From a virus, in IMG/VR virus record IMGVR_UViG_3300024518_002913, positions 1-35,424 of that record: a stretch of 35,424 nt of DNA; one strand, 5' to 3'. The position numbers were made by a program, and so were the translations under genes. Under the pieces are notes generated by a model. That model saw nothing but the letters and a program-made list of their open reading frames with translations. It did not search any database and was not told where the DNA came from. Of the stretch, positions 10,503-33,573 are shown in pieces (the stretch's first letter is position 1; each line of letters starts with the position of its first letter).

Positions 10503-10802
10503 TTAATAGTTCCTTGTTTCTGTTGCTCTGGCTAGTTTTTCTTTTAATTCTTTGTTTTCTGCTCTTAGTTTTTCTATGTCTGGCGTTGTCACTTCCAAAA
10601 AAAGTTTTTGTGCCTCGGTTGAGCAAAAAGAATCAAATATTTGCATAACCTGTCTTGTTAGTTTGAATGGGTCTCTCGGCGTTAGCAATACAGCTTTAAA
10701 GTTTCCGTCTTTTATTTTCTCCATAGCTTCTTTTTGATAAGGGTGCATCTTAAACCCATTATCCGAACATTCCCCCTGATTTTTTGCTGTCGTAAGTGTC
10801 AT
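10503..10802 (-). CDS. Hypothetical protein (99 aa)
   Basis: ORF track 10503..10832. ATG at 10802 is preceded by GAGGGAATATT. It overlaps the terL 3' end by 44 nt. Confidence 0.45.
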   Translation of the reverse strand: MTLTTAKNQGECSDNGFKMHPYQKEAMEKIKDGNFKAVLLTPRDPFKLTRQVMQIFDSFCSTEAQKLFLEVTTPDIEKLRAENKELKEKLARATETRNY

Positions 10803-12411
10803 AATATTCCCTCGATTTTTTGGCGATTGCATGAACTGGTAATTTATATTGTTTCCATGCCATTATTGCTAAACAAGCCGCCACTATCCTGTCTAAGCCA
10901 TTTAATACTACGCCACCATTCGACTCTCTGGCAAGCCCTCCCATTTCGACAAGTAAAGGAATCCAACGCGGTTTCCAGTCTTTGTCACGGAATACTCTTA
11001 TAAGTTCATTTATCATAATTGTTTTTGAAAGCTCAGTAGTACGCCATCCGTACTTTGTCTCCTTTTTCTTTTTAACCTTATCTTCTTTCACTTCTTTATA
11101 GATAGGGTGATAACCAGCATTGCGCACTGTGGTTACTGTTGTGTGCCCCATGTTATTGTTTTCAATACATAATAAGGCTTTGTTGTACATGGTCCCGATT
11201 CCGATTAATAGGTGACCAAACATATCGGGATCAATCTTCCCGCACCATGTGGCAACTTCGTTAAGCTGGTCATCAATCACATAAAATGCGCTGCTGTCAC
11301 CTTGTTCTAAGCCTTCCGCAACGTCTGCCCCTACAAAGTATTGGCGTCCGTCCTGTGGCGGGCTTAAAATCGTTATTTCTGGCATACGATCTTTTAGCAT
11401 ATAGTTTTCTGTTTTGATATTCTGGGCGATATTTGAAGGTCTGCATTTTCTTAACCCGTTCTGTAATTCAGCAATGTAATAAGGATCAAATACTGGTCTG
11501 CCTGAGCTTCTAAATGCTTCCTCTGGAGTTAATGGGAAATCTTGTTTAAATCTTTCTTTGGCTGGTAGGGCATGATCCGTATTGGTCATATCTTTGCGGT
11601 ACTCTGACATTTTTAACCTACGCCACATTAAATTGCCGTTTGTTACCTTTGGTTCTATTTTTAAGATTTCTTTTTCATCTTGATTAGGTCTAAAATCAAC
11701 TGGTACTGGCATTGTATAATCATCTACCTCATACCATGCAACGAAAAATGGCTTATAGATAGACTCCCCTGCTTCTGCCGCTAACCATAGCTCATAAAAT
11801 GGCGCACCTATTCCCTGCTTTCCGTTAGCTGTCGATTCCTTAATTATATAAGAATTATCGAATAACGGTATAGAGTTTTGAATCCCTTCATCAATATCAT
11901 CAGGATAAAGAAAAAAAGCGCATTCTGTCATGTGGGCAAATAATCTTGAGCCAGCCCGCCCGCAGTTTTTATCCCTTGCGGTCCCGTATTTTACCGCCGA
12001 TCCCAACCCAGCTTTTTGCCCAAGCTCGTCACGGCGTGGGTTATCAAGTAGTATTTTTTCAATATTATCTGACTCAACTTGCGGTCTAATTTTGTCATCA
12101 AGTGACACAAGAAAATTCGAGTATACATCACGCATCTCCATGGTACGGGCATACTGGTCCGCTATCGCAATACCTCTAAAATGGTGTGAAGTACACATCT
12201 TCCACATATAAATAGAGGCGCATAACGTAGTGAATCCAGCTTGCCTAGGTTTTAAAACTATGACCCGTTTAGGTCCCTTAATCTGGTCAAGAAATCTATA
12301 AAACTTTTTCTGATAATCCCTAAGATAAAAGGGATCGTTTTCGCCATACTTAGTTTTTATCCTATGAAATAGCTCGGCGTACTCTATATAATTTTCTAAT
12401 AACTCCATCAA
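10759..12411 (-). CDS. terL: Terminase large subunit
   Basis: 550 aa with a Walker-A-like VIVLKPRQAGFTTL near the N-terminus, followed by a nuclease-sized C-terminal half. Size and layout are typical of TerL. Confidence 0.85.
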   Translation of the reverse strand: MMELLENYIEYAELFHRIKTKYGENDPFYLRDYQKKFYRFLDQIKGPKRVIVLKPRQAGFTTLCASIYMWKMCTSHHFRGIAIADQYARTMEMRDVYSNFLVSLDDKIRPQVESDNIEKILLDNPRRDELGQKAGLGSAVKYGTARDKNCGRAGSRLFAHMTECAFFLYPDDIDEGIQNSIPLFDNSYIIKESTANGKQGIGAPFYELWLAAEAGESIYKPFFVAWYEVDDYTMPVPVDFRPNQDEKEILKIEPKVTNGNLMWRRLKMSEYRKDMTNTDHALPAKERFKQDFPLTPEEAFRSSGRPVFDPYYIAELQNGLRKCRPSNIAQNIKTENYMLKDRMPEITILSPPQDGRQYFVGADVAEGLEQGDSSAFYVIDDQLNEVATWCGKIDPDMFGHLLIGIGTMYNKALLCIENNNMGHTTVTTVRNAGYHPIYKEVKEDKVKKKKETKYGWRTTELSKTIMINELIRVFRDKDWKPRWIPLLVEMGGLARESNGGVVLNGLDRIVAACLAIMAWKQYKLPVHAIAKKSREYYDTYDSKKSGGMFG

Positions 12412-12581
12412 GGACAGGCCCAGCCTTCAATATTTGGCTTCCAGTTTTCACCGTTTACTAGAGCCTCTTTGGATAACCACATAATAAACCCTTTATCGTC
12501 CACAAATTCCATCATATCTTCATCGGGAATAATCCTTATAAGTCTCCAAACTTTATTTTTCCTAATTATTGTCCAACTCAT
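12408..12581 (-). CDS. Hypothetical protein (57 aa)
   Basis: ATG at 12581 makes an ATGA overlap with the upstream gene (MSWTIIRKNKVWRL...). Its stop overlaps the terL start. Confidence 0.4.
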   Translation of the reverse strand: MSWTIIRKNKVWRLIRIIPDEDMMEFVDDKGFIMWLSKEALVNGENWKPNIEGWACP

Positions 12582-12787
12582 TCTTCCCACTCCGGTTTTA
12601 CTAGATAAGCAACATCGCAATATTTGCACCTTGCTATCATTTCATTAATCTTCAATATGCCATAAAGAATATCATTCGGATTAGAGCAACAAGGGCAGCA
12701 CCATTGCACGTTACCAGTGCCGCCTACTTCTTTAGGTTGATGCTTTTCTAGTTCTTTAACTATTTTGTCATCAAGATTATTTCTCAT
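12578..12787 (-). CDS. Zinc-ribbon hypothetical protein (69 aa)
   Basis: Cys pairs WCCPCC ... CKYCD. Confidence 0.5.
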   Translation of the reverse strand: MRNNLDDKIVKELEKHQPKEVGGTGNVQWCCPCCSNPNDILYGILKINEMIARCKYCDVAYLVKPEWEE

Positions 12788-12966
12788 ATCGTTACCTCTT
12801 CCCCGTCTGTGCTATCTATAACTTGGATAACATCGTCTCCATATTCTGCAACCTCTGCATCTGCCATAGCAAACGCGCTTTCTTTTGTTGTAGCCGATCC
12901 TATAAAATCATTAAACCCGCCAGAAGGGTAATAAGTTGAAAAGGTAAAAACTAAATACCTATTCAT
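12784..12966 (-). CDS. Hypothetical protein (60 aa)
   Basis: ORF track; translationally coupled to both neighbours. Confidence 0.45.
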   Translation of the reverse strand: MNRYLVFTFSTYYPSGGFNDFIGSATTKESAFAMADAEVAEYGDDVIQVIDSTDGEEVTI

Positions 12967-13244
12967 ATCGCCCTCGCTATATAGGAGAGTATTGTCATAT
13001 TGACTATGAAACTTTCTCCCTCTATGTGAATTTCCACCTTGTCATTGCCAAGAAAATCAACCATAACTCTCCGATTGCCTATTAAATACGGATTGTTAGC
13101 TTTCCGTTTCGGATCTTTTACTTGACTACCCTGGTCGGGTACTTTATCTCCGCATTTTTCGCAGCAATCCCTGAAACGTATTAGGTGCTTGCAAAATCCT
13201 GACTCTATAAATTCGCTAACTGGTACGCTAGTACGCCCTGTCAT
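12963..13244 (-). CDS. Cys-cluster hypothetical protein (93 aa)
   Basis: Contains CKHLIRFRDCCEKCGD; coupled to the downstream gene. Confidence 0.45.
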   Translation of the reverse strand: MTGRTSVPVSEFIESGFCKHLIRFRDCCEKCGDKVPDQGSQVKDPKRKANNPYLIGNRRVMVDFLGNDKVEIHIEGESFIVNMTILSYIARAI

Positions 13245-13505
13245 TTATAGGTCCAAGTAAGCAATGATAGTTTTTTGAATGGCAACGTACTCGGTCCGGC
13301 TTGCTGTCGTTGAGCCTGTCGCGTTTGTGATTGTTAGCGTGTTGCCTGACAGGGTTAGCGTTACCGTAATTCCTCCACTTGTAAAAATCAAGGTCGTAAT
13401 AAAGCTATCTGATTGTAAAATTTTCATAGCTTCTTTTACTGTCGCCTCTGTTAAATCTTCTTCTGCTGTTACTGCGATTGATGGGCTTACTTTTGTAATC
13501 GTCAA
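13245..13505 (-). CDS. Hypothetical protein (86 aa), Thr-rich
   Basis: ORF track; overlaps the HNH gene stop by 4 nt. Confidence 0.45.
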   Translation of the reverse strand: MTITKVSPSIAVTAEEDLTEATVKEAMKILQSDSFITTLIFTSGGITVTLTLSGNTLTITNATGSTTASRTEYVAIQKTIIAYLDL

Positions 13506-13936
13506 GATTGACTCCTTTTTTTAAGTTTATATTTTTTTAAATTTCTTCTTGCACATATTCTACAGGCTCTTGCGCCCGTCTTTTCTATTTTTAAATTTTC
13601 ACCAGAAAAAGGATGCCCCCACTTACAATGCGTTTTCGCTAAGTTTTCGTGCCTTCCTCTTTTCATTTTGTCTTTTACGTTATCTGCCCTTGTTCCTACT
13701 CGGAGATGATAAGGGTTGCAACAAGGCGGGTTATCGCATGAATGAAGTATGCAATCATCTTTCTTTATGTCTTTACCTTTAAAAAAGAAATATGCAAACC
13801 TGTGGGCAAGTTGGGCTTTTCCGTCTATAAATATTCTTCCGTGCCCAAAGTGACCCTTTCCAGCCTTCCACTCCCAGCAATTATTTAAAGGGTCTTTTGG
13901 AATATTAACCTTGTCCCAGAATCTTTTCATAGCCAA
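13502..13936 (-). CDS. HNH endonuclease
   Basis: CWEWKAGK..GHGRI...AHRFAYFF...ILHSCDNPPCCNPYHLRVGTRADNVKDK is a classic phage HNH_3 pattern. Confidence 0.8.
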   Translation of the reverse strand: MAMKRFWDKVNIPKDPLNNCWEWKAGKGHFGHGRIFIDGKAQLAHRFAYFFFKGKDIKKDDCILHSCDNPPCCNPYHLRVGTRADNVKDKMKRGRHENLAKTHCKWGHPFSGENLKIEKTGARACRICARRNLKKYKLKKRSQS

Positions 13937-14301
13937 TCCCTATTAATCATATCGTCATTGTATTCAATTCTATATTCATTTGTTGGAAATAATCTGCAAT
14001 AGAAAGGGTCTTTGCTTTCCTTGGCTTCTTCTTTGTCGCTCCTAACTACTCCCAGCATTCTTTCTTTAAGCCTTTTTTTATATCTTTTCATTTCGTCATA
14101 CTTTTCGACTAATGCGATTACATCATCATTTACCGGATGAAGTGCCGTTAATTGTCTCGCTTCCCTTAAGTAATCGTGTACCGTTTTTCTGCATATCCTT
14201 AATGATTTCGCAGCGAGTTCTTTGTCTCCGTCGTGAAAGTTTAAGACTTTCATGGTCCATTCTAATTTAACTAAATTTAGACATTTTATGCCCTTACTCA
14301 T
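13927..14301 (-). CDS. Small HTH DNA-binding protein (Fis-type-like)
   Basis: GDKELAAKSLRICRKTVHDYLREA resembles a Fis/HTH_8-type helix-turn-helix. Confidence 0.45.
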   Translation of the reverse strand: MSKGIKCLNLVKLEWTMKVLNFHDGDKELAAKSLRICRKTVHDYLREARQLTALHPVNDDVIALVEKYDEMKRYKKRLKERMLGVVRSDKEEAKESKDPFYCRLFPTNEYRIEYNDDMINRDWL

Positions 14302-14470
14302 TTAAAATCCAATCTTGAGCGTTCACCGCTTCTTTTGTCATTATAACAGGAAGATATATCCCTGCGTCTGTTGCTTGTAGAATAGAGCCGTCACTCGATA
14401 CAACCAGAAAGAAGAGATATTTCGATCTTCTAAATGGTTTTCCTGAATTGACGGCTTCTATAAACGTCAT
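14294..14470 (-). CDS. Mini DUF2829-like protein (58 aa)
   Basis: Below the ORF-track size cutoff. Reads MTFIEAVNSGKPFRRSKYLFF...TKEAVNAQDWILNE, with the family-like N-terminal FxEAxxxGKxxRR and C-terminal A(E/Q)DWIL motifs. Confidence 0.45.
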   Translation of the reverse strand: MTFIEAVNSGKPFRRSKYLFFLVVSSDGSILQATDAGIYLPVIMTKEAVNAQDWILNE

Positions 14471-14474
14471 TGGC

Positions 14475-15086
14475 TTATACTGCCAAATTCTCTAGTACGT
14501 CCGTTGGGTCTGCTTTCACTCCTAGGCTATCTAGGTCAACGTCATCAATATGCCTAAAATGTTTTCGCCATTCCGGCTCACTTAAGATTATCCTATCGAC
14601 TCTCTCAAGGTCACCTTTGTAATCTGACTCTGTTGGTGAAATACCCATTTTAATTTTTTCCTGTACCCCGTCCTTAACTCTTTCAACCGATGGAATGGTG
14701 AAGCTATGAAAGACCGTATACATTTCAAAGGGTTTTCCTGCTGCTGGGTCTGTCCTGTACTTAAATTCCATTCCTACTTCCATTTTACGGAATCTTCCAG
14801 CTTTAATTAGATGGTGCATTTCGCAACGTAAATTTGAGCTCTTAACCTCGTAAGCATTGAAATCATACCAATCATCAGTGTGGTCAACCAATCTACCTCT
14901 TGAAAATTCCCAAGCTAGGACAGGACCAACTGCATCTATGCTTTTCTTTCTTAGCTTGCTCTTAATAAGCTCTAACGTGTCGTTAAATAATCTCAGCCTT
15001 CTGCTTCTTGTTGCTTCGTCCTGAATCATTGTAATTTCTGAAAAAGTTCTTTTTAATACTTCAAATTTTGATAATAGTTCTTTCAA
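14475..15086 (-). CDS. Hypothetical protein (203 aa)
   Basis: ORF track; no motif recognised. Flanked by the two DUF2829-like genes. Confidence 0.5.
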   Translation of the reverse strand: MKELLSKFEVLKRTFSEITMIQDEATRSRRLRLFNDTLELIKSKLRKKSIDAVGPVLAWEFSRGRLVDHTDDWYDFNAYEVKSSNLRCEMHHLIKAGRFRKMEVGMEFKYRTDPAAGKPFEMYTVFHSFTIPSVERVKDGVQEKIKMGISPTESDYKGDLERVDRIILSEPEWRKHFRHIDDVDLDSLGVKADPTDVLENLAV

Positions 15087-15096
15087 GTTTAACCCC

Positions 15097-15441
15097 TTAT
15101 AATAAAATCCAATCTTCTGCTAGTATAGAATCATGCCCAAGTCCAAGAGGTAAAACTGTTACCCCGTGTGGTCCCTCTTTTGTTAAGGCAAGCCAAGGCT
15201 CTGTGATTTTGTCGTGTAGATCAACTGGCTTCAATGAAACGTGGATATAGTCAACGTCATCATGCCACGCCTTTCTTGTAACCTTATGTGTAATATGTTC
15301 CTTTAGGTAGTCTATTGCTTTCCCAATTCCTACGCCATCGTTAATTAATTCAACTGGGCAATGTGAATCCCCATTAAGTCCTGCGTTGTTTGCTTTATCT
15401 ACTAGGCTTGTTTTTGCATAGCCTGACCTTGCGTTTTCCAT
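15097..15441 (-). CDS. DUF2829-family protein (Thoeris anti-defence Tad2-type fold)
   Basis: IGKAIDYLKEHITHKVTRKAWHDD ... PWLALT ... DSILAEDWILL matches the DUF2829 layout: an A..lk.G.kv.R..W N-terminal motif and a LAEDW C-terminus. Confidence 0.6.
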   Translation of the reverse strand: MENARSGYAKTSLVDKANNAGLNGDSHCPVELINDGVGIGKAIDYLKEHITHKVTRKAWHDDVDYIHVSLKPVDLHDKITEPWLALTKEGPHGVTVLPLGLGHDSILAEDWILL

Positions 15442-15527
15442 TTTGATTTCCTTTAGCCGCCTATTAAAATGGCTGCTATGAATAAGATTAATATAATTAA
15501 ATAATTTTCCACTCTTTCCTTAAAGAA

Positions 15528-15640
15528 GGCGCAGCCTCCTGTAATCCGTCGATCTTTTGCAAAGAACTGCGCCCCCTGATCCCCGCCCTTTTACCCCTCC
15601 ACCTTGCGGCTTTAATGGGGGTTCATACGGGTTACCCTTT
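15528..15640 (-). other. GC-rich structured island: 7-bp stem (15528..15534 with 15567..15573) plus a G-quadruplex motif (15572..15597, minus strand)
   Basis: The minus strand reads GGGGTAAAAGGGCGGGGATCAGGGGG, four G3+ tracts with loops of 5, 1 and 4 nt. GGCGCAG/CTGCGCC is an inverted repeat enclosing a TCTTT/AAAGA mini-hairpin. The composition contrasts strongly with the AT-rich genome. Confidence 0.5.
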
Positions 15641-15988
15641 AAACACCGTGCTTTCTTTTTTGCTTTCCTTGGCTTTCCCTGCTTTGTTTTCTTTAAAGCA
15701 TTTTTCATAAGCTTTTTTAGTCATGGTCACTTCCCCATATTTGCCATCAATGGAAATCTTATCTCCTTCTACATTGCACCGATAAACTAGCCCCTTGTCA
15801 AATAGACCATTCTGCTCGACGCATAGAGCCTTAACATTCTTTCTTTTCTGGCTCGGCTTCTGCTTCTGATTGCTCCCCTTCGTTACTGAGTTGCTTAGTT
15901 TCGGGGGTGATACAACCCTCTTTAGGGGTGCTTTCCCTAAATCCAACTTCTTCGATACTTTCTTTGTCGCTTTCTTTTTTACGTTCAT
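15632..15988 (-). CDS. Hypothetical protein, N-terminal extent uncertain (overlaps the terS 3' end out of frame)
   Basis: The C-terminal part (ALCVEQNGLFDKGLVYRCNVEGDKISIDGKYGEVTMTKKAYEKCF) looks genuinely coding. The only in-frame starts (ATG 15988, TTG about 15946) lie inside terS. Confidence 0.4.
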   Translation of the reverse strand: MNVKKKATKKVSKKLDLGKAPLKRVVSPPKLSNSVTKGSNQKQKPSQKRKNVKALCVEQNGLFDKGLVYRCNVEGDKISIDGKYGEVTMTKKAYEKCFKENKAGKAKESKKESTVFKG

Positions 15989-16514
15989 CTTTTTTCCTTG
16001 TTAAATAATCCTCTATGGATTCGTTAGTATTTTCACTTCCTTCTGATCTTTTAGAGCTTTCAAGTAATTGCCCCATAACAAGCATTGCCTTAGTCTTTGA
16101 CTCAAATGTTATATCTATGCCATGAGCAGTGCTTTTTATCTTTTGAACGGCAAACATTGCCTCTTTTGGAATATCCTCTAAAGCCTTTATATGCAGTATT
16201 CCGCCATCGTCTATCCGGTCTATTATATCCATTATGTTATATGTACAAAGTGCCTCTAATCTATCCATAAGGTCGTTAGCATCTTCAATTTCTCTTATCT
16301 GATGCCCTTCTGCTGCTTTCTGAAGGTACGGTAATAGTACATTATCCCTTTTTAGCTCTGATGCTATGTTTTTCGCACTGTGTTTACTATACCCAACATC
16401 TATGGCGGCTTGCGTTGCTGTCCCGTGCCCCATGCCTAATTCAATATATCGCTTTGCCCAAGCTCTTTTTCTTGGTGCAACACGTTTAATCTTTTTGGCT
16501 GGGGTTTTAGTCAT
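15831..16514 (-). CDS. terS: Terminase small subunit (Terminase_2-like)
   Basis: KRYIELGMGHGTATQAAIDVGYSKHSAKNIASELKRDNVLLPYL is the typical TerS HTH region. ATG at 16514 is preceded by AAAGGG and overlaps the upstream stop (ATGACTAA). Confidence 0.8.
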   Translation of the reverse strand: MTKTPAKKIKRVAPRKRAWAKRYIELGMGHGTATQAAIDVGYSKHSAKNIASELKRDNVLLPYLQKAAEGHQIREIEDANDLMDRLEALCTYNIMDIIDRIDDGGILHIKALEDIPKEAMFAVQKIKSTAHGIDITFESKTKAMLVMGQLLESSKRSEGSENTNESIEDYLTRKKDERKKESDKESIEEVGFRESTPKEGCITPETKQLSNEGEQSEAEAEPEKKEC

Positions 16515-16731
16515 TATAAACCCTTTCGACGTATGTGATAAATTCTCCACTGTTTCCAATGGATTCTCGCCTTATCACTAATTTATACTTCTCTTTTATT
16601 TCATGCTCATAAAAATCAGCCTTTCTATCATGTGTCTCAACCCATACACCTTCCTTTGTGTAACAAGGAAATGATTCTGCGGTTAAATCAAAGGGTTTAT
16701 TTCCGAATCTATGAAAATCTTCGTCAATCAA
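16507..16731 (-). CDS. Hypothetical protein (74 aa), TTG start
   Basis: ORF track; the TTG start overlaps the upstream stop (TTGA). Confidence 0.45.
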   Translation of the reverse strand: MIDEDFHRFGNKPFDLTAESFPCYTKEGVWVETHDRKADFYEHEIKEKYKLVIRRESIGNSGEFITYVERVYND

Positions 16732-17344: not shown

Positions 17345-17607
17345 TATGCTGTCTGCTGCATATTTATTTTTGTTTGTTCTTCCTTGGTGTCAATTTCTTG
17401 ACGCTCTTTAGCTGTTGCCATTCTTGAGTTTATACACTGGCAACTTATCTGCTTGCATACTCCGTGCTTTATTTCCTCGGTGTAACCCTTATCTTGACAT
17501 TTCATGCACTTGAAAGGCTTTAACTTCTTTTTATTCTTAAAAATATTGCTATATTCTTCTCTGTCTTTTAAGGCTCCGCCGCCTACTGTCATTTTGTCAG
17601 TTCCCAT
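17341..17607 (-). CDS. Cys-rich (zinc-finger-like) hypothetical protein
   Basis: CMKCQDKGY...CKQISCQC. The start could be ATG 17607 or ATG 17592. Confidence 0.45.
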   Translation of the reverse strand: MGTDKMTVGGGALKDREEYSNIFKNKKKLKPFKCMKCQDKGYTEEIKHGVCKQISCQCINSRMATAKERQEIDTKEEQTKINMQQTAY

Positions 17608-18073
17608 TAATGATTTCTCCTGTCTTAATAAAATCTTCCGTCATTTTCTTTTGTACTTTAAATAATTCATGGATAAATACTTCCTTAACCGCACTTGATT
17701 TATTAACACCGAATAGTATCCATTCTGGCGATACTTCCTTGACTTGCGCCCCGTGAAACCTCGGAAATGGCGGGGGATTGAATTTTTCTTGCCATTTTAA
17801 ATCATAATAAGTGCCATATAAACCAAATTCATTGTAATTCAGGGTCATAATTCCCCTTTCTCTGTCGGTAATACAATGCTCTGGAATCCCTATAGAGGCT
17901 GAAACTTCGCCTCTAGTGAGTCTTAGAGTCGTTCTAAGCCATTTTAATCTGTCGTGAATGATAATATAACTCCCGTTGTTTAATCTTCTTGGAGCCGCTC
18001 CCCCTTTGCAAGTCTTTTTTTTGATTATCTGCAATAATTTATAAATACTAGGAAGGTAGCCAAAAACTCCCAC
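17597..18073 (-). CDS. XRE-family HTH transcriptional regulator (putative)
   Basis: HDRLKWLRTTLRLTRGEVSASIGIPEHCITDRERG matches the XRE HTH pattern. First gene of the minus-strand block; GTG start assumed. Confidence 0.5.
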   Translation of the reverse strand: MGVFGYLPSIYKLLQIIKKKTCKGGAAPRRLNNGSYIIIHDRLKWLRTTLRLTRGEVSASIGIPEHCITDRERGIMTLNYNEFGLYGTYYDLKWQEKFNPPPFPRFHGAQVKEVSPEWILFGVNKSSAVKEVFIHELFKVQKKMTEDFIKTGEIINGN

Positions 18074-22015: not shown

Positions 22016-22036
22016 CTATGTATCAAAGGATTGTAT

Positions 22037-22480
22037 ATGACAAAAAAAGTAGCAAGCATAAGAATTAAGACAGAAGAAAAAGAAATGCTGAAAAAGAAAT
22101 TCGGCGGATTACAGGCGGCTATTGATCTCGGCCTAGAAGAGGTTTTAAAAAAGTATACATTTATCTATCTAATCACCAATTTAAAAAACAAAAAACAATA
22201 TGTCGGAATCTCAAAAAACCCCAAGAAAAGGTTTTACCAACATTGCCATAGTAAAACTATTTTAGGATACGACATTAAGAAGCACGGGAAGGAGTCGTTT
22301 AGCTTTGAGGTTTTAGCTAAATCTGAAAATCCCGTGACATCAAAAGATTTAGAAATATTTTTTATATTTTATTTTAAAACAGGAAAAGAATTTGGAGGAT
22401 ATAACGCTATCCCAGAGGGTAAAATGTATCTTTGGGATAACACAGTTATATCAACCCTTGACAATCTAGGAGGTAAGTAA
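22037..22480 (+). CDS. GIY-YIG nuclease with an N-terminal RHH-like segment
   Basis: YTFIYLITNLKNKKQYVGISKNPKKRFYQH is a GIY-YIG core. N-terminal KKVASIRIKTEEKEMLKKKF is ribbon-helix-helix-like. ATG 22037 follows AAAGGA. Confidence 0.65.
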   Translation: MTKKVASIRIKTEEKEMLKKKFGGLQAAIDLGLEEVLKKYTFIYLITNLKNKKQYVGISKNPKKRFYQHCHSKTILGYDIKKHGKESFSFEVLAKSENPVTSKDLEIFFIFYFKTGKEFGGYNAIPEGKMYLWDNTVISTLDNLGGK

Positions 22481-29543: not shown

Positions 29544-30695
29544 CTATTTAGCCTTTGGTACTTTAAATCTTCCGTCATTTATTCTTTTTTGTCTCAGCTT
29601 TTTATATCTTAAAAACTCTTTTTCTTCTTTAGTATATTTCTTCTTTCCTTTTTTGTTCCATTGCTGGCCGGGTAGAAGCACTTCCATTAATTTCTGCTTT
29701 ATTGGCTCATTGTATTCTGTAGCAAACGCCTTGCCCTTTCTAATAACATTTTCGCTCATTGTCTCGGCCTCTTGTTCTAGCCCGTAATCTCCACCTTTAT
29801 ATAATTTTTGATTGAAATATTTATCTTCTTTTTCATCTTGAATCATAATTTTACCAAAATGCGACGGCTTATTGATTAGGTTTACATTTCTTTCACCTAG
29901 TATGCTTAATCGTCTATCGTCTAACCCTCTTTCTTTTAACCTTCCGTCATATTTCTCTATCTCTCCAGCAAAGTTTTGAGCCGTTGCAAGTCTTAAGTTT
30001 TCGGCTGCATCAAATAACTGATTCATAACAGGTGCTGAAAATTTCCTACCAGTTTTTCCTTTTACAAAAAATTGTTTAAATTTCCCCATCCAACTATCAA
30101 GATTTTCTATAGCTCTTTCTTCTGCCTCTCTAACGACTCCGGGCTTCTCTTCTGTCATTGGAACCACTTGCCTCATTAATGACCACATATCCGCTGCTGG
30201 GAAATTTTTAGGGGTATTAATCCATTGACGCCTTAATCTTTGTACGCCTAAATGTATTTTTCTTAATCCTCTGTAACCGTTATCTAGTTTGTCTATGTCG
30301 GCTTTCATATCTTTAGAATCTTTGTCTTTGTAAGCTGTGTCTAGCCTAGCAATATAGCCAGTTATTGCGCCCATAGGTATTCTTAAGTCTACAGTATAAG
30401 CTTCCATTTCCTGTATTTCCCTTTGAGAAAATCCAAGATTCATTTTTGCACCATCATCTAGCAAGTCTTTTACTTGCTTTCTTCTTTCTTTTCTCATTAG
30501 TGCTTTTTCTTTTGCGCTTCCTTTATCGTCCCCTTCTGCACCTTTTTTCTTTGCCCTAATTAATTCAAGCGCATATTTTTGCTTAGTTGCTTGATCGAAT
30601 CCTTTAGCAAAGTTCTTAGAAATATTATCTTCTATCCGCCTTGATTCTGCGTCTAACTTCGCTTGCTCTGCTTGTGATGTATCGAAAAAGCTCAT
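29544..30695 (-). CDS. Putative internal virion protein (383 aa)
   Basis: ORF track; charged and helical. The call rests on position only. Confidence 0.35.
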   Translation of the reverse strand: MSFFDTSQAEQAKLDAESRRIEDNISKNFAKGFDQATKQKYALELIRAKKKGAEGDDKGSAKEKALMRKERRKQVKDLLDDGAKMNLGFSQREIQEMEAYTVDLRIPMGAITGYIARLDTAYKDKDSKDMKADIDKLDNGYRGLRKIHLGVQRLRRQWINTPKNFPAADMWSLMRQVVPMTEEKPGVVREAEERAIENLDSWMGKFKQFFVKGKTGRKFSAPVMNQLFDAAENLRLATAQNFAGEIEKYDGRLKERGLDDRRLSILGERNVNLINKPSHFGKIMIQDEKEDKYFNQKLYKGGDYGLEQEAETMSENVIRKGKAFATEYNEPIKQKLMEVLLPGQQWNKKGKKKYTKEEKEFLRYKKLRQKRINDGRFKVPKAK

Positions 30696-30704
30696 ATTAT
30701 TTCC

Positions 30705-31421
30705 TTATCTTCTTTGGAAGCCCTGCTGAATGTGTTGCCTTCCTCTTGTGCCTGAACCTCTAACATAATTATGTCCTGAACTTTGAAAGCCTTGCTGTAT
30801 ATATCCGCGCGCTCTTGATCCATATCCTACCCTTGGCGGCATTGGTGGACCTTGCTGGCCGGGAGCGAGATAGCCTTCTGCATTTCCGCCGCCTCCACTG
30901 GACCAATTTCTTTTACCCATTGCTTGACCATAGCTAGAAGCAAAGCCCCCAACTGCTGCCGTTGCCGATCCTTTAAATAATGACTTAGCAAAGCTGTCTT
31001 GTTTAACGTCATTGAATCTCATTCCAACATTAGTTCCTGAAAGGGTCGATCTTGAAACGGCTCCAAATTCATCCATCATCGCATCTTTTCTTTTGCCAAA
31101 TGAACCCCTATTAAATTCTCTTTTTTCTGCCGTATCTCTACCAAGATTTCTCGATGCGCTTGAGTAAATAGAAGTTGCACCCCCAGCCGATCCACGCTGT
31201 TTTCTTCTATCTGCCATTTTCATGTTAGCGTCTTTCTCGGCTTGCACTAGCGTTTTATCATCGCGCCCTATATCTTCCTTTACTCTATCGTCAACCCTTT
31301 GGTTTCTTCTGGCGAATCTCTGAAAAACTTCGCCTTCACCCTTTGCCGCATCCATCTTGATTTTTTTAAGATCGGCTGCCCCAAGGTCGGCTTTTAATGT
31401 TTTATCTTTAAACCAACCCAT
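30705..31421 (-). CDS. Gly-rich virion-module protein, paralog B (238 aa)
   Basis: Shares blocks with the 219-aa neighbour: LKKIKMDAAKGEGEVF vs LKRIKLAAGRGEGKVL, and FNRGSFGKRKDAMMDEFG vs LNKASFERRKDDIAKEYG. Confidence 0.5.
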   Translation of the reverse strand: MGWFKDKTLKADLGAADLKKIKMDAAKGEGEVFQRFARRNQRVDDRVKEDIGRDDKTLVQAEKDANMKMADRRKQRGSAGGATSIYSSASRNLGRDTAEKREFNRGSFGKRKDAMMDEFGAVSRSTLSGTNVGMRFNDVKQDSFAKSLFKGSATAAVGGFASSYGQAMGKRNWSSGGGGNAEGYLAPGQQGPPMPPRVGYGSRARGYIQQGFQSSGHNYVRGSGTRGRQHIQQGFQRR

Positions 31422-31423
31422 GG

Positions 31424-32083
31424 TTATGACCCTCCCGCTTTTTGTCCTAAGCCTTTAGCTAAGCCGCCCGTAAACGATGTTACTCCGCCCCTAAGTAATG
31501 ATTTCCCGAAGCTGTCTTTAGTGGTTGCGTGAAATTTCGTCCCTATGTCTGTAGTATTTAAAGTTTGCCTTGCCATGTTTCCGTATTCTTTTGCAATATC
31601 GTCTTTTCTTCTTTCAAAAGATGCCTTATTTAATAGTCTAGCCTCTGATGCGCCCTTAGACGTTCCACTCTCCGCAAGTAAACCCTGTGAAGTGTTTTGC
31701 ATCCCTGCGCCCCTAACAGATTGTGTTGCGCCTTCCTCTGCTGACTTCTGTTGCTTGGCTAGGCCTCTATCTTCTCTTTCAATATCGCCTTTTGCAATTT
31801 TGTCAGAGTCTTTACTTCTTCGCTTGTAATGCTCAAGAACTTTCCCTTCGCCTCTGCCAGCCGCCAACTTAATTCTTTTTAATTCTGCCGCCTCTGGGCT
31901 TGCTGGGTCCACAACGTCGCCGAACATATCCTTGATAGCTCCGCCTGATGCAAAATTTCCCCAGCCTTTTGCTGCTCTACTTAAGCTCGGCCCTCGGAAA
32001 ACTGAGCCACCGCCTAAGTTGACGGTTCCAACCGTTGCGGCCTTAACTGCCCCGCTTACTGTTCTTTTTAACGAAAAGCCCAT
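31424..32083 (-). CDS. Gly-rich virion-module protein, paralog A (219 aa)
   Basis: See paralog B; the two genes are separated by 2 nt. Confidence 0.5.
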   Translation of the reverse strand: MGFSLKRTVSGAVKAATVGTVNLGGGSVFRGPSLSRAAKGWGNFASGGAIKDMFGDVVDPASPEAAELKRIKLAAGRGEGKVLEHYKRRSKDSDKIAKGDIEREDRGLAKQQKSAEEGATQSVRGAGMQNTSQGLLAESGTSKGASEARLLNKASFERRKDDIAKEYGNMARQTLNTTDIGTKFHATTKDSFGKSLLRGGVTSFTGGLAKGLGQKAGGS

Positions 32084-32092
32084 ATCTAACCC

Positions 32093-32446
32093 TTATCTAT
32101 TGAAATAATCCGCTACGTTTTCAAGAAATTTTTGTTTCTTTACAGGATCGGAAAGATCGGCTTTGTCGAATTTCCTTAGAAATTTGTAAGACTTTTTCCT
32201 GTCCTTGTTTTTATTTTCCTTTTTTTGCCTTTCTGTGACTTCTTTGCCTTCGAGTTCAATAAGCCTTGCAAGGTTTTTAGCTTGTCTTATTTTTTTTAAA
32301 GACGTGTCAAGAGTATCTGGGTCCCCCTCATCTTCTAAAATCTTTTCAATATTTATGACATTACCGATACGCCGATTAAACTCTACCTGTGTAATAGCGT
32401 TGACTGAAAAAGAAACTAGAAAACTAATTAATAATAATATTTTCAT
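32093..32446 (-). CDS. Exported small charged protein (117 aa) with a Sec signal peptide
   Basis: MKILLLISFLVSFSVNA|ITQ, followed by a Lys/Glu-rich helical region. Confidence 0.5.
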   Translation of the reverse strand: MKILLLISFLVSFSVNAITQVEFNRRIGNVINIEKILEDEGDPDTLDTSLKKIRQAKNLARLIELEGKEVTERQKKENKNKDRKKSYKFLRKFDKADLSDPVKKQKFLENVADYFNR

Positions 32447-32454
32447 TTTATCTC

Positions 32455-33573
32455 CTAATTATAGATATGTGGAAAGTAGTAGCATGATAAATTTTGACCA
32501 CTTTTTCTTCCGCTAACTGTCTGGCTAATATTAGCAGTGCCAGCCGAAACATTTTGCTGCACTTGTATCGTTACGTTTGTTTGATCTGTGGCGTAGGTAA
32601 ATTCACCCGTTAAAATACCTACCCCATTGTCCGCCGCCGAGCCGTCGTATTGTACAACTGCAGAAGCTCCCGTAGTTCCATCGTAAAATCTTATTCCTTG
32701 ATCCCCTGCCGTGCTAACAGAAATCATACCAGTTAAAAAGCACCTTACTGTTCCTGCTGGAATAAAACTCATAACAATTTTTATTTTAGCTCCGTCTGTT
32801 CCTGTTGTCCCGCCATCTGCTGCGCAATCTGTTGCATTAACGCCACCGTAACAAGTGCGCGCAGTATCTCCGCAGTCGTCATCATCTGGAAAATTAGTCC
32901 ATGAAGTCCCTGAGCCTATCCACTGACAATTAGTGGTCTCTGCCCATGTGACACTAGCCAAAAGCCCTGCCCCATAAGGTGCTTTATAAACTCCATTAGC
33001 CCAACTTTTAACAGTATTTTGATTTATATCGCTCGATCCATCATTAAAAAATCTACCTAGGATTTTATTTCCTGAAGAATCATAACCATCTGGATCCGGT
33101 GCTGTAGTAGTAATTAATCCCGTTAGCGTTGTTCCCGTTGATCCCGTTTTTACATAAACATAATAATCTGTACTTGCTGCCTCTGCTGAGCAACCCGTGC
33201 AGCCCCATGTGACAGTGTTTGCAGTAGTGGTTTTAACAAAATTTCCATTAACCGACATTATGCAATCGCCCATAGATATGGTTGCGGCGTCACTCCAAGA
33301 TATAGCGCATCCATCCCTAACGCCATTAAGTAAAGCGGCGTAATCTGTTGTATTTAAAGCCCCATCCTCAAGAGTACCGTCAACTAGACACCCTGCATCA
33401 AGTGAGCCAGCAAGGCGGTCATAGATCGTACTATGATCCCCATTATACTTGGTTGATGTTAGTACCGTATTAGCAGAGTTTGCCGTGTATGTGTCACTGG
33501 TACACGTTCCCGCATAAACCTGACAACCAGCTGAGCAAGCCAACATTAATAAAGCTAAAATTTTCTTTTTCAT
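32455..33573 (-). CDS. Fibre / receptor-binding-like protein with an N-terminal signal peptide, unusually Cys-rich
   Basis: MKKKILALLMLACSAGCQVYA|GT. Mature part is Gly/Thr/Ser/Asp-rich and beta-like (YYVYVKTGSTGTTLTGLITTTAPD, KILGRFFNDGSS) with about 15 or more Cys. Confidence 0.5.
   Translation of the reverse strand: MKKKILALLMLACSAGCQVYAGTCTSDTYTANSANTVLTSTKYNGDHSTIYDRLAGSLDAGCLVDGTLEDGALNTTDYAALLNGVRDGCAISWSDAATISMGDCIMSVNGNFVKTTTANTVTWGCTGCSAEAASTDYYVYVKTGSTGTTLTGLITTTAPDPDGYDSSGNKILGRFFNDGSSDINQNTVKSWANGVYKAPYGAGLLASVTWAETTNCQWIGSGTSWTNFPDDDDCGDTARTCYGGVNATDCAADGGTTGTDGAKIKIVMSFIPAGTVRCFLTGMISVSTAGDQGIRFYDGTTGASAVVQYDGSAADNGVGILTGEFTYATDQTNVTIQVQQNVSAGTANISQTVSGRKSGQNLSCYYFPHIYN

What the first reader, a model, noticed from the sequence alone, without database searches (positions are those of the whole stretch)
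13927..15441. Candidate anti-defence island: two DUF2829 (Tad2-type) paralogs flanking an unknown 203-aa gene, closed by an HTH gene
The 114-aa protein (15097..15441) has the DUF2829 layout and ends in LAEDWILL. An unannotated 58-aa ORF (14294..14470) repeats the N-terminal FIEAVNSGKPFRR and C-terminal AQDWIL motifs in miniature. DUF2829 is the family of Tad2, which sequesters the Thoeris signalling molecule gcADPR. The order (sponge-like gene, unknown 203-aa gene, mini paralog, small HTH protein) resembles anti-CRISPR/Aca-style loci in which a terminal HTH autoregulates the operon. The island lies between terS and HNH/terL, directly downstream of the GC-rich structured element.
Basis: partly seen in the sequence, partly recalled or inferred. 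Interest (0 to 1): 0.7.

Follow-up and report, generated by a model that had tools for sequence, protein, structure and literature searches.

The report
One Tad2-like gene, not two
An uncultivated phage carries one divergent member of the Tad2 family (phage proteins that soak up bacterial immune signals) just after its small terminase gene. The proposed second mini-copy is not supported. The neighbouring 203-aa 'unknown' is a conserved companion of the terminase genes with a fold that matched nothing, not island cargo.

Summary
All four ORFs exist at the stated coordinates on the minus strand and look coding.

- **114-aa protein (15097..15441):** a real but divergent DUF2829/Tad2-like protein. 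PHROG 1048, which is also SPO1 Tad2's best PHROG, matches at E=1.8e-6. hhalign gives 90% probability. Pfam PF11195 gives E=0.002, below its cut-off. A related phage has a bona fide Tad2-like gene in the same slot after terS. Only one of the known gcADPR-contact residues is kept, so the ligand is unknown.
- **58-aa 'mini paralog' (14294..14470):** an orphan. Every profile, pairwise and fold test was non-significant. Only a C-terminal A-x-D-W-I-L resemblance remains (p≈0.006 before multiple testing).
- **203-aa gene (14475..15086):** not island cargo. Homologues lie just upstream of terL in all seven distinct genomes of this terL clade. The structure model is confident (pLDDT 93) and has no PDB or BFVD analogue.
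- **124-aa 'HTH' (13927..14301):** only sub-threshold HTH hits. It does not close an operon, because the gene array runs on with overlaps through an HNH gene and five small genes into terL.

Verdict: a variable accessory slot between terS and terL holding one new Tad2-family member, not a two-sponge Acr/Aca-style island.

The parts
15097..15441 (-). 114-aa divergent DUF2829/Tad2-like protein. The domain spans residues ~34-114, after a ~33-residue N-terminal extension.
   Evidence: phrog_1048 E=1.8e-6, which is also SPO1 Tad2's best PHROG. Pfam PF11195 E=0.0019, 19.1 bits, below the cut-off of 25. hhalign 90% probability, E=1.6e-6. BLASTP E=1e-5 to the bona fide Tad2-like protein of L010. Smith-Waterman z=7-10 against ModTad2, L007 and L010.
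14475..15086 (-). 203-aa protein of an uncharacterised family that lies just upstream of terL across the clade. The predicted fold has no known analogue.
   Evidence: 38 matches at E<=0.001 (the query itself and 37 others) among 1.84 billion representatives. Homologues lie upstream of terL in L008, L010, L011, L014, L016 and L017. AF2 pLDDT 93.1, pTM 0.82. Foldseek best E=0.5 in PDB and 0.06 in BFVD. No Pfam, PHROG, NCBIfam or PADLOC hit.
14294..14470 (-). 58-aa orphan ORF, probably coding. DUF2829 homology is not supported.
   Evidence: Coding-like frame signal and called by gene callers. Only itself was found among 5.8 billion proteins. No family hits. hhalign probability 0.4%. AF2 pLDDT 57.9. 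Foldseek gave no Tad2 match.
13927..14301 (-). 124-aa orphan protein with a possible Fis/PucR-type helix-turn-helix at residues ~16-58.
   Evidence: Pfam HTH_30 E=0.013 and DUF134 E=0.068, both below their cut-offs. No phage or PDB homologue. No homologue in clade relatives.
13502..13936 (-). HNH endonuclease. The likely start is the ATG at 13930, which overlaps the 124-aa stop as ATGA.
   Evidence: Pfam HNH_3 1.8e-7. phrog_826 4.9e-35. No BLASTP match in the relatives at E<=1e-3/1e-4. An ORF carrying HNH-like motifs (by eye) lies directly upstream of terL in L017.
12408..13505 (-). Five small, overlapping or abutting ORFs (86, 93, 60, 69 and 57-73 aa) that continue the array into terL.
   Evidence: The 86-aa protein has a 48%-identical homologue elsewhere in L008 and L015.
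10759..12411 (-). Large terminase subunit.
   Evidence: tblastn to annotated terminase large subunits. About 49% identical to the terL of L008, L010, L011, L014 and L016.
15831..16559 (-). Small terminase subunit.
   Evidence: Pfam Terminase_2 1.4e-13 and phrog_51 2.5e-12.
15442..15830 (-). 389-nt spacer, probably non-coding. It holds two GC-rich hairpins (~15524..15636), then an AT-rich stretch upstream of the 114-aa gene.
   Evidence: Fold z=-2.04 for 15505..15640. No Rfam match. ORFs in the spacer have no coding-frame signal.

Best explanation
The terS-terL interval of this uncultivated phage is a variable accessory-gene slot built around one conserved gene.

(1) The 203-aa gene belongs to a small uncharacterised family. 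Within the loci fetched here it was found only alongside this terL clade, always just upstream of terL and usually right after terS. Many members carry an N-terminal HeH/Rho_N-like DNA-binding motif. Inferred: it most likely works with, or is co-expressed with, the packaging machinery and is not anti-defence cargo.

(2) The first gene after terS (114 aa) is a divergent Tad2/DUF2829-family protein. By analogy with tested members, it most likely forms an oligomer that binds and sequesters a small nucleotide-derived immune signal. Family membership is shown. Function and ligand are inferred. The canonical gcADPR pocket is mostly replaced, so the ligand is probably not bound in the SPO1/HgmTad2 manner.

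(3) The 58-aa and 124-aa genes are lineage-specific orphans, the latter possibly DNA-binding. Together with an HNH endonuclease and five more small genes, they fill the rest of the slot. All ten genes, 114-aa gene first, are packed without gaps into terL. They probably form one transcription unit that starts after the hairpins downstream of terS.
For: Tad2 family membership of the 114-aa protein.

Positional support: the same slot directly after terS holds a bona fide Tad2-like gene in relative L010 (Pfam 8.2e-7, 29.9 bits, above the cut-off).

Synteny of the 203-aa family: window, L008 (=L009/L013/L015), L010, L011, L014, L016 and L017, that is 7 of 7 distinct genomes with terL 43-49% identical. 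It was absent from the 46 more distant terL loci.

Accessory nature of the rest: the 58-aa, 124-aa and HNH proteins have no sequence homologue in the relatives.

Gene packing.

Coding signal for all four genes.

Tested Tad2 homologues sequester gcADPR, His-ADPR, cyclic dinucleotides, cCMP/cUMP or N7-cADPR (10.1101/2023.05.01.538930; 10.1101/2023.11.15.567273; 10.1101/2025.08.24.671296).
Against: - The Pfam score is below the gathering cut-off.
- Pocket residues are largely replaced: SPO1 N26, W73 and D79 (HgmTad2 N22, W87, S90, T92, D93) become H60, ~L99, G102, D104 and S105. Only W25/W21 is kept, as W59.
- No structure model was made for the 114-aa protein.
- A packaging role for the 203-aa family rests on synteny alone. 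It has no detectable enzymatic or DNA-binding motif in this phage, whose copy lacks the HeH-like N-terminus.
- The transcription unit is inferred from spacing only. The sigma-70 and terminator scans were no better than shuffled controls.
Confidence: 0.6

Rival explanations
1. The four genes form a dedicated anti-defence operon: two DUF2829 sponges (114 aa and a 58-aa miniature) flank an unknown effector, and a terminal Aca-like HTH protein autoregulates the operon.
For: The 114-aa protein is Tad2-like. The 58-aa ORF is the window's best non-self match to it, with the C-terminal motif in register. The 124-aa protein has weak HTH hits. A hairpin-containing spacer precedes the array.
Against: The 58-aa ORF failed all profile and fold tests. 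The 203-aa gene is clade-core and syntenic with terL, including genomes that have no DUF2829 gene. The HTH gene overlaps HNH and the array continues to terL, so it is not an operon terminus. No convincing operator-like repeat lies upstream.
Confidence: 0.1
2. The 58-aa protein is a real but extremely reduced DUF2829 derivative. It keeps helix alpha1, the core strands and the C-terminal helix but has lost the alpha2 loop. It may act as a partner or modulator of the 114-aa protein, for example as a hetero-oligomer, rather than as a sponge of its own.
For: MAFFT places its N- and C-terminal motifs in register with SPO1, Mod and Hgm Tad2, with R21, A81, D83 and W84 matching. Smith-Waterman z=4.8 against the 114-aa protein. 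The two-block PSSM gives p=0.006 against shuffles and rank 6 of 546 ORFs. A C-terminal [DE]W..[ILVM] motif occurs in only 3 of 516 window ORFs. The low-confidence AF2 secondary-structure order, alpha-beta-beta-beta-beta-alpha, is compatible.
Against: None of this survives correction for about 50 genes and post-hoc selection. hhalign probability is 0.4%. HMM E-values are 3.8-22. z is only 0.8-2.9 against bona fide Tad2 proteins. Two unrelated ORFs outscore it in the PSSM test. It lacks the W25, N26 and W73 equivalents and the alpha2 dimer interface. No homologue exists anywhere.
Confidence: 0.2
3. The 114-aa DUF2829-fold protein has a role unrelated to immune-signal sequestration, for example another small-molecule or protein-binding function tied to late gene expression or packaging.
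For: The canonical gcADPR pocket is mostly not conserved. The gene sits at the head of the packaging gene array, whereas a sponge might be expected to be made early. The same slot is occupied in L010. To my knowledge no member of the 'DSILAEDW' subtype it resembles (L007, P0002-P0020) has been tested.
Against: The tested DUF2829 proteins reported in the papers read here were signal sponges, with very plastic ligand specificity (10.1101/2025.08.24.671296). DUF2829 genes occur in several different genomic modules, as expected for accessory genes. Five of the seven clade genomes lack it, so it is not essential for packaging.
Confidence: 0.2
4. The 203-aa family is itself a counter-defence factor that co-evolves with terL, for example by shielding the terminase from terminase-sensing immune receptors such as Avs.
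For: Strict linkage to one terL clade. Fast divergence: 23-30% identity by BLASTP to the homologues in the related loci, against 49% for terL. No enzymatic motif and a fold without analogues. Terminase is a known Avs target (PMC13601566, title and abstract only).
Against: Pure speculation with no direct evidence. Presence in every clade member is more typical of core functions. No PADLOC or anti-defence family hit.
Confidence: 0.1

Closest known systems
Tad2 (SPO1 gp34.65; HgmTad2 = 'AcrIIA7'; ModTad2; SptTad2), Pfam PF11195 Tad2-like/DUF2829, phrog_1048
   Same: The 114-aa protein aligns over the whole ~75-residue domain. It has an N-terminal helix (GKAIDYLKE), a basic strand ending in Trp (VTRKAW) and the hallmark C-terminal helix LAEDW followed by a short hydrophobic strand at the very C-terminus. 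It is a small phage protein sitting among small accessory genes.
   Different: About 20-28% identity. The Pfam score is below the cut-off. There is a 33-residue N-terminal extension and a short beta2-beta3 loop. The gcADPR-pocket residues of SPO1 and HgmTad2 are replaced, except the first Trp. It resembles an untested 'DSILAEDW' subtype. Oligomeric state and ligand are unknown.
acr-aca operons (anti-CRISPR genes followed by an HTH autorepressor)
   Same: Small accessory genes with a possible HTH gene downstream.
   Different: The HTH call is sub-threshold. The gene is not terminal: it overlaps HNH and the array continues into terL. No match to any known family above its threshold. No operator-like repeat was identified. 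One of the 'cargo' genes (203 aa) is a conserved clade gene.
HNH endonucleases next to terminase genes (packaging-associated HNH of HK97-like phages, from my own knowledge; or free-standing homing endonucleases)
   Same: An HNH_3 / His-Me finger gene lies between terS and terL. L017 has an ORF with HNH-like motifs directly upstream of terL.
   Different: The HNH_3 plus zinc-loop type is typical of homing endonucleases. No sequence homologue was found in four to five clade relatives, so it is more likely a mobile insertion than part of the packaging machinery. This was not tested.
Moron or hypervariable accessory-gene slots in phage late operons
   Same: Gene content between two conserved anchors (terS and terL) varies from 1 gene (L011, L016) to 10 genes (this window), and includes orphans, an endonuclease and a counter-defence-family gene.
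   Different: The slot contains one invariant resident, the 203-aa family, which is unusual for a purely accessory hotspot.

Membership tests
Tad2-like / DUF2829 (PF11195): 114-aa protein | Pfam model match at or above the gathering score (25 bits) | tested here: not met
   19.1 bits, E=0.0019, but the alignment covers model positions 3-72 of 73.
Tad2-like / DUF2829 (PF11195): 114-aa protein | Significant full-domain similarity to bona fide members by independent profile methods | tested here: met
   phrog_1048 E=1.8e-6 over the same profile region that SPO1 Tad2 matches. hhalign 90% probability, E=1.6e-6, 76 columns. My own HMMs give E=5.5e-5 to 1.3e-3, and it is the only window ORF above noise. 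BLASTP 1e-5 to the L010 protein, which passes the Pfam cut-off.
Tad2-like / DUF2829 (PF11195): 114-aa protein | gcADPR-pocket residues: SPO1 W25, N26, W73, D79; HgmTad2 W21, N22, W87, S90, T92, D93 | tested here: not met
   Only W59 (W25/W21) is conserved. N becomes H60, W73/W87 becomes ~L99, S90 becomes G102, T92 becomes D104 and D79/D93 becomes S105 (residues from 10.1101/2023.05.01.538930 and 10.1101/2023.11.15.567273).
Tad2-like / DUF2829 (PF11195): 114-aa protein | Tad2 fold (alpha1 plus a five-stranded antiparallel sheet plus a C-terminal helix) and homotetramer | not tested
Oligomeric state is not testable with these tools.
Tad2-like / DUF2829 (PF11195): 114-aa protein | Binds an immune signalling nucleotide and rescues phage from a signalling defence system | not testable with these tools
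   Requires biochemistry and plaque assays.
Tad2-like / DUF2829 (PF11195): 58-aa ORF | Significant profile or pairwise similarity to the family | tested here: not met
   No Pfam hit at E<=10. hhalign probability 0.4%. HMM E=3.8-22. No BLASTP alignment to the L010 Tad2-like protein. Within-window BLASTP E=0.12-0.34 against the 114-aa protein.
Tad2-like / DUF2829 (PF11195): 58-aa ORF | Tad2 fold | tested here: inconclusive
   Single-sequence AF2 model has pLDDT 57.9, pTM 0.28. Foldseek against PDB gave no Tad2 match, but the model is too poor to count.
acr-aca-type autoregulated operon | HTH regulator gene | tested here: inconclusive
   HTH_30 E=0.013 and DUF134 E=0.068, both below their cut-offs. 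No PDB or phage homologue.
acr-aca-type autoregulated operon | The regulator closes a short, separate operon | tested here: not met
   The 124-aa gene overlaps the HNH start. Six further genes and terL follow with gaps of 0 nt or less, and no terminator-like site follows on the minus strand.
acr-aca-type autoregulated operon | Promoter with inverted-repeat operators upstream of the first gene | tested here: inconclusive
   Only short AT-rich palindromes and a 10-nt repeat around the start codon. The promoter scan was no better than shuffles.
HNH endonuclease (HNH_3): 144-aa protein | Pfam/PHROG model match | tested here: met
   HNH_3 31.1 bits, above the cut-off of 24.8. phrog_826 4.9e-35.
Any described family: 203-aa protein | Sequence or fold match to a described family | tested here: not met
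   No Pfam, PHROG, NCBIfam or PADLOC hit for the protein, and none shared among its 37 aligned family members. The PDB profile search gave only coiled-coil noise. Foldseek against PDB and BFVD gave no hit at E<0.05.

The most novel reading that the evidence does not exclude
The 203-aa family is a previously undescribed third component of the terS/terL DNA-packaging module of this phage clade, which includes a prophage in a Bacteriovoracaceae genome. It has a confidently predicted fold without a known analogue and is often fused to an HeH-type DNA-binding motif. Next to it, the 114-aa protein would be a Tad2-family sponge with a remodelled pocket for a signal not yet known to be sequestered.
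Probability: 0.25. Interest if true: 0.6.

Novelty: new member of a known kind. Interest (0 to 1): 0.38.

Why it matters
Tad2-family sponges are already known to be widespread (over 2,700 homologues) and plastic in what they bind. One more divergent member is a modest addition. It is useful mainly because its pocket differs from the characterised ones, so it could reveal another ligand specificity.

The more interesting by-product is the 203-aa family. It is strictly linked to one terL clade, has a high-confidence predicted structure that matches nothing in PDB or BFVD, and has no annotation anywhere. If it is a packaging factor, it would extend the canonical terS/terL pair in this clade.

The check also guards against over-annotation. 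Motif-level look-alikes such as the 58-aa ORF, and 'terminal HTH' arguments, should not be used to call anti-defence islands.

Tried and rejected
- **Close relatives in GenBank phages.** No DNA match. No tblastn match for the 203-aa or 124-aa proteins.
- **Direct homologue searches.** The 114-aa and 58-aa proteins each returned only themselves.
- **PDB sequence searches.** Nothing for the 114-aa, 58-aa or 124-aa proteins.
- **58-aa as mini-DUF2829.** I tried Pfam at E<=10, hhalign, three custom HMMs (full domain, loop-deleted core, and one including the PDB Tad2 sequences), an anchored two-block PSSM, Smith-Waterman against shuffles, and single-sequence AF2 plus Foldseek. Results were consistently in the right register but never significant.
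- **Polymorphism for a dN/dS test.** The region is 100% identical in four independent assemblies, so no test is possible.
- **124-aa protein as a relative of the terS-like HTH proteins of L008 and L011.** No similarity.
- **118-aa ORF overlapping terS, and the 62-aa ORF in the spacer, as genes.** Neither shows a coding-frame signal, and the 118-aa ORF has no homology to an L014 ORF.
- **Rfam and tRNA scans.** Nothing in the window or the spacer.
- **PADLOC.** No hits.
- **Searching the 203-aa family in bacterial genomes by its own motif.** This failed. It was found only through the terL-anchored scan.
Full report
**Anatomy.** All genes of interest are on the minus strand. In the direction of transcription the order is as follows.

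| Element | Coordinates | Notes |
|---|---|---|
| terS | 15831..16559 | Terminase_2 1.4e-13 |
| spacer | 15442..15830 | 389 nt |
| 114-aa gene | 15097..15441 | good Shine-Dalgarno sequence |
| 203-aa gene | 14475..15086 | TTG start, 10-nt gap |
| 58-aa ORF | 14294..14470 | 4-nt gap |
| 124-aa gene | 13927..14301 | 8-nt overlap |
| HNH endonuclease | 13502..13936 | ATGA overlap if it starts at the ATG at 13930 |
| five small ORFs | 12408..13505 | overlapping or abutting |
| terL | 10759..12411 | |

So the 'island' has no downstream boundary at the HTH gene. Ten genes are packed end to end between the spacer and terL. A codon-frame log-odds test trained on the long genes of the window gives positive in-frame and negative off-frame scores for the 114-, 203-, 58- and 124-aa ORFs. 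The ORFs inside the spacer do not look coding. The same phage was assembled from several samples and gene callers called all four ORFs. The region is 100% identical in four assemblies, so polymorphism gives no further test.

**The 114-aa protein is a divergent Tad2/DUF2829 protein.**
- Pfam PF11195 (named 'Tad2-like'; the finding's PF10991 is the wrong accession) matches at E=0.0019, 19.1 bits. That is below the 25-bit cut-off, but the match runs end to end over model positions 3-72 of 73.
- PHROG 1048 matches at E=1.8e-6. I checked that this PHROG is the best hit of SPO1 Tad2 itself (E=9.7e-28) and of other Pfam-positive DUF2829 proteins, over the same profile region.
- A tblastn-confirmed relative (L007) is Pfam-positive at 3e-15. 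A profile of the two sequences recovered 233 proteins at E<=0.001. All of the 120 best listed, apart from the query itself, are annotated PF11195.
- hhalign of a 14-sequence DUF2829 alignment against the 114-aa protein gives 90% probability, E=1.6e-6, over residues 34-114.
- HMMs I built without the query single it out among the 516 window ORFs, at E=5.5e-5 to 1.3e-3.
- Smith-Waterman z-scores against shuffles are 7-10 for ModTad2, L007 and L010.
- The same alignment retrieves the solved Tad2 structures 9EIB, 8V3E, 8SME, 8KBI, 9KZR and 8WJD.

**The pocket is not conserved.** I mapped the published ligand contacts onto the alignment. These are SPO1 W25, N26, W73, D79 (10.1101/2023.05.01.538930) and HgmTad2 W21, N22, W87, S90, T92, D93 (10.1101/2023.11.15.567273). 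Only the first Trp is kept, as W59. The other positions read H60, ~L99, G102, D104 and S105. The protein resembles the 'DSILAEDW' subtype seen in L007 and many pool members. Tested Tad2 homologues bind very different signals: gcADPR, His-ADPR, cyclic dinucleotides through an insertion domain, cCMP/cUMP and N7-cADPR (10.1101/2025.08.24.671296). A sponge role is therefore the best inference, but the ligand cannot be named and Thoeris specificity should not be assumed.

**The 58-aa 'mini paralog' is not supported.**
- It has no homologue other than itself among 5.8 billion proteins.
- It has no Pfam hit even at E<=10, and no meaningful PHROG or NCBIfam hit.
- hhalign gives 0.4% probability.
- It has no BLASTP alignment to the L010 Tad2-like protein.
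- My full-domain, loop-deleted and PDB-enriched HMMs give E-values of 3.8-22.
- Single-sequence AF2 gave pLDDT 57.9, and Foldseek then found no Tad2 match. That result is uninformative because the model is poor.

What remains is a resemblance in the correct register:
- It is the reciprocal best hit of the 114-aa protein within the window, but at E=0.12-0.34.
- A C-terminal [DE]W..[ILVM] motif occurs in only 3 of 516 ORFs.
- An anchored two-block PSSM gives p=0.006 against shuffles and rank 6 of 546 ORFs, with two unrelated ORFs scoring higher.
- Smith-Waterman z is 4.8 against the 114-aa protein but only 0.8-2.9 against real Tad2 proteins.
- MAFFT aligns it plausibly as a core lacking the alpha2 loop.

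With about 50 genes in the window and post-hoc selection, this is suggestive at most. I put true homology at about 20%.

**The 203-aa gene is a clade-conserved neighbour of the terminase genes.** An exhaustive phmmer search found 38 matches at E<=0.001, the query itself and 37 others, mostly 172-302 aa (one of 128 aa). Many have an N-terminal HeH/Rho_N-like motif that the window protein lacks. That motif rests on the alignment and on one member hitting Rho_N weakly. Neither the protein nor the family as a whole matches Pfam, PHROGs, NCBIfam, PADLOC or PDB by sequence.

Fetching loci showed its context:

| Locus | Gene order |
|---|---|
| L011, L016 | terS-like, family member, terL |
| L008 | terS-like, family member, Dam-like methyltransferase, terL |
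| L014 | terS, HTH-like gene, family member, terL |
| L010 | terS, Tad2-like, 2 genes, family member, 2 genes, terL |
| L017 (prophage in a 298-kb Bacteriovoracaceae MAG contig) | HTH-like, terS-like, family member, 116-aa ORF, ORF with HNH-like motifs (by eye), terL |

These terL proteins are 43-49% identical to the window's. The family was absent from the 46 more distant terL loci, mostly Bacteroidales. So it is present in 7 of 7 distinct clade genomes, always just upstream of terL.

AF2 with the family alignment gave a confident model: pLDDT 93.1, pTM 0.82, with three long N-terminal helices followed by an alpha/beta domain. Foldseek found nothing in PDB (best E=0.5) or BFVD (best E=0.06). 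Synteny argues for a function tied to packaging or at least to this terL lineage. The mechanism is unknown.

**The 124-aa 'HTH' and the Aca analogy.**
- Only sub-threshold hits support an HTH: HTH_30 E=0.013 at residues 16-58, and DUF134 E=0.068. By eye, the segment DKELAAKSLRICRKTVHDYLREAR looks like a Fis-type HTH.
- It has no homologues in phages, PDB or the clade relatives.
- It is unrelated to the terS-like HTH proteins of L008 and L011.
- The gene is internal to the array.
- The upstream spacer shows only AT-rich palindromes and a 10-nt inverted repeat bracketing the 114-aa start codon.
- Promoter and terminator scans are at background.

The Acr/Aca-style reading is therefore not supported, though not excluded.

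**Context of Tad2-like genes elsewhere.** Two pool members sit in different modules. One lies among small genes ~2 kb upstream of a terminase. The other lies between a helicase and a DNA polymerase. This fits a mobile accessory gene. Within the clade only the window and L010 carry one, both as the first gene after terS. That could reflect an ancestral resident lost in the others, or a preferred insertion slot.

**Conclusion.** It over-reads the rest as a two-paralog, HTH-closed anti-defence operon. The best description is a variable accessory slot between terS and terL. It contains a new, divergent Tad2-family member with a remodelled pocket, two orphans, an HNH endonuclease and further small genes. 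These are arranged around a conserved, structurally novel 203-aa gene that belongs with the terminase genes.

Noticed in passing
window 15524..15636 (minus strand), inside the terS-to-114-aa spacer 15442..15830: Two adjacent GC-rich hairpins. The second (GGGGGCGCAG...CUGCGCCUUCU followed by UUUAAGG) looks like a terminator or attenuator. The fold is -43.7 kcal/mol with z=-2.04 against shuffles. There is no Rfam match. ORFs across this stretch show no coding-frame signal.
   Followed up: partly
window 15438..15447 and 15463..15472: A 10-nt inverted repeat (90% complementary, 15-nt loop). On the mRNA it would pair the 114-aa start codon with an upstream segment and leave the Shine-Dalgarno sequence in the loop. 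It may be a translational control element, or it may be chance.
   Followed up: no
L017 3458..7629 (Bacteriovoracaceae MAG, 298-kb contig); L016 (30-kb contig binned as Myxococcales): A prophage-like region in a Bacteriovoracaceae genome carries the same module: a homologue of the window's 158-aa HTH-like protein, a terS-like gene, a 203-aa family member, an ORF with HNH-like motifs, and terL at 43% identity. Its GC content (38.9%) is close to the window's (37.4%). This hints at the host lineage of the window phage.
   Followed up: partly
window 17597..18073 (minus strand): This 158-aa protein sits at the head of the minus-strand block, next to the divergent plus-strand block. It has homologues beside terS in L008, L010, L014 and L017 (E=3e-14 to 4e-7). 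Together with terS, the 203-aa family and terL, it is part of the conserved module. It has no Pfam family.
   Followed up: partly
window 32455..33573 (minus strand) and the GC-elevated stretch ~30500..33500: The 372-aa protein has a weak match to 'Mtd second domain' (E=1.1e-4, just below the cut-off). Mtd is the receptor-binding protein that diversity-generating retroelements target. It lies in a region with GC of 0.43-0.46, against ~0.37 elsewhere. I did not look for a reverse transcriptase or template repeat.
   Followed up: no
window 12784..12966 (minus strand); window ~22031..22480 (plus strand): Precomputed Pfam annotations on the identical contigs list PF26894 (Phage_T4_Y07C) for the 60-aa gene upstream of terL. 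They also list a GIY-YIG endonuclease (147 aa) in the plus-strand block. That would be a second free-standing endonuclease besides the HNH.
   Followed up: no
window 13900..15850 compared with L001, L003 and L004: The whole region is 100% identical at the nucleotide level in assemblies from four different samples or runs. The closest cultured phage by TerL is only 30% identical (Roseobacter phage CRP-7).
   Followed up: yes
window 15632..15988 (minus strand): A 118-aa lysine-rich ORF overlaps the 3' end of terS in another frame. Some gene callers called it, but it has a negative coding-frame score downstream of terS and no homologues. It is probably not a gene.
   Followed up: partly
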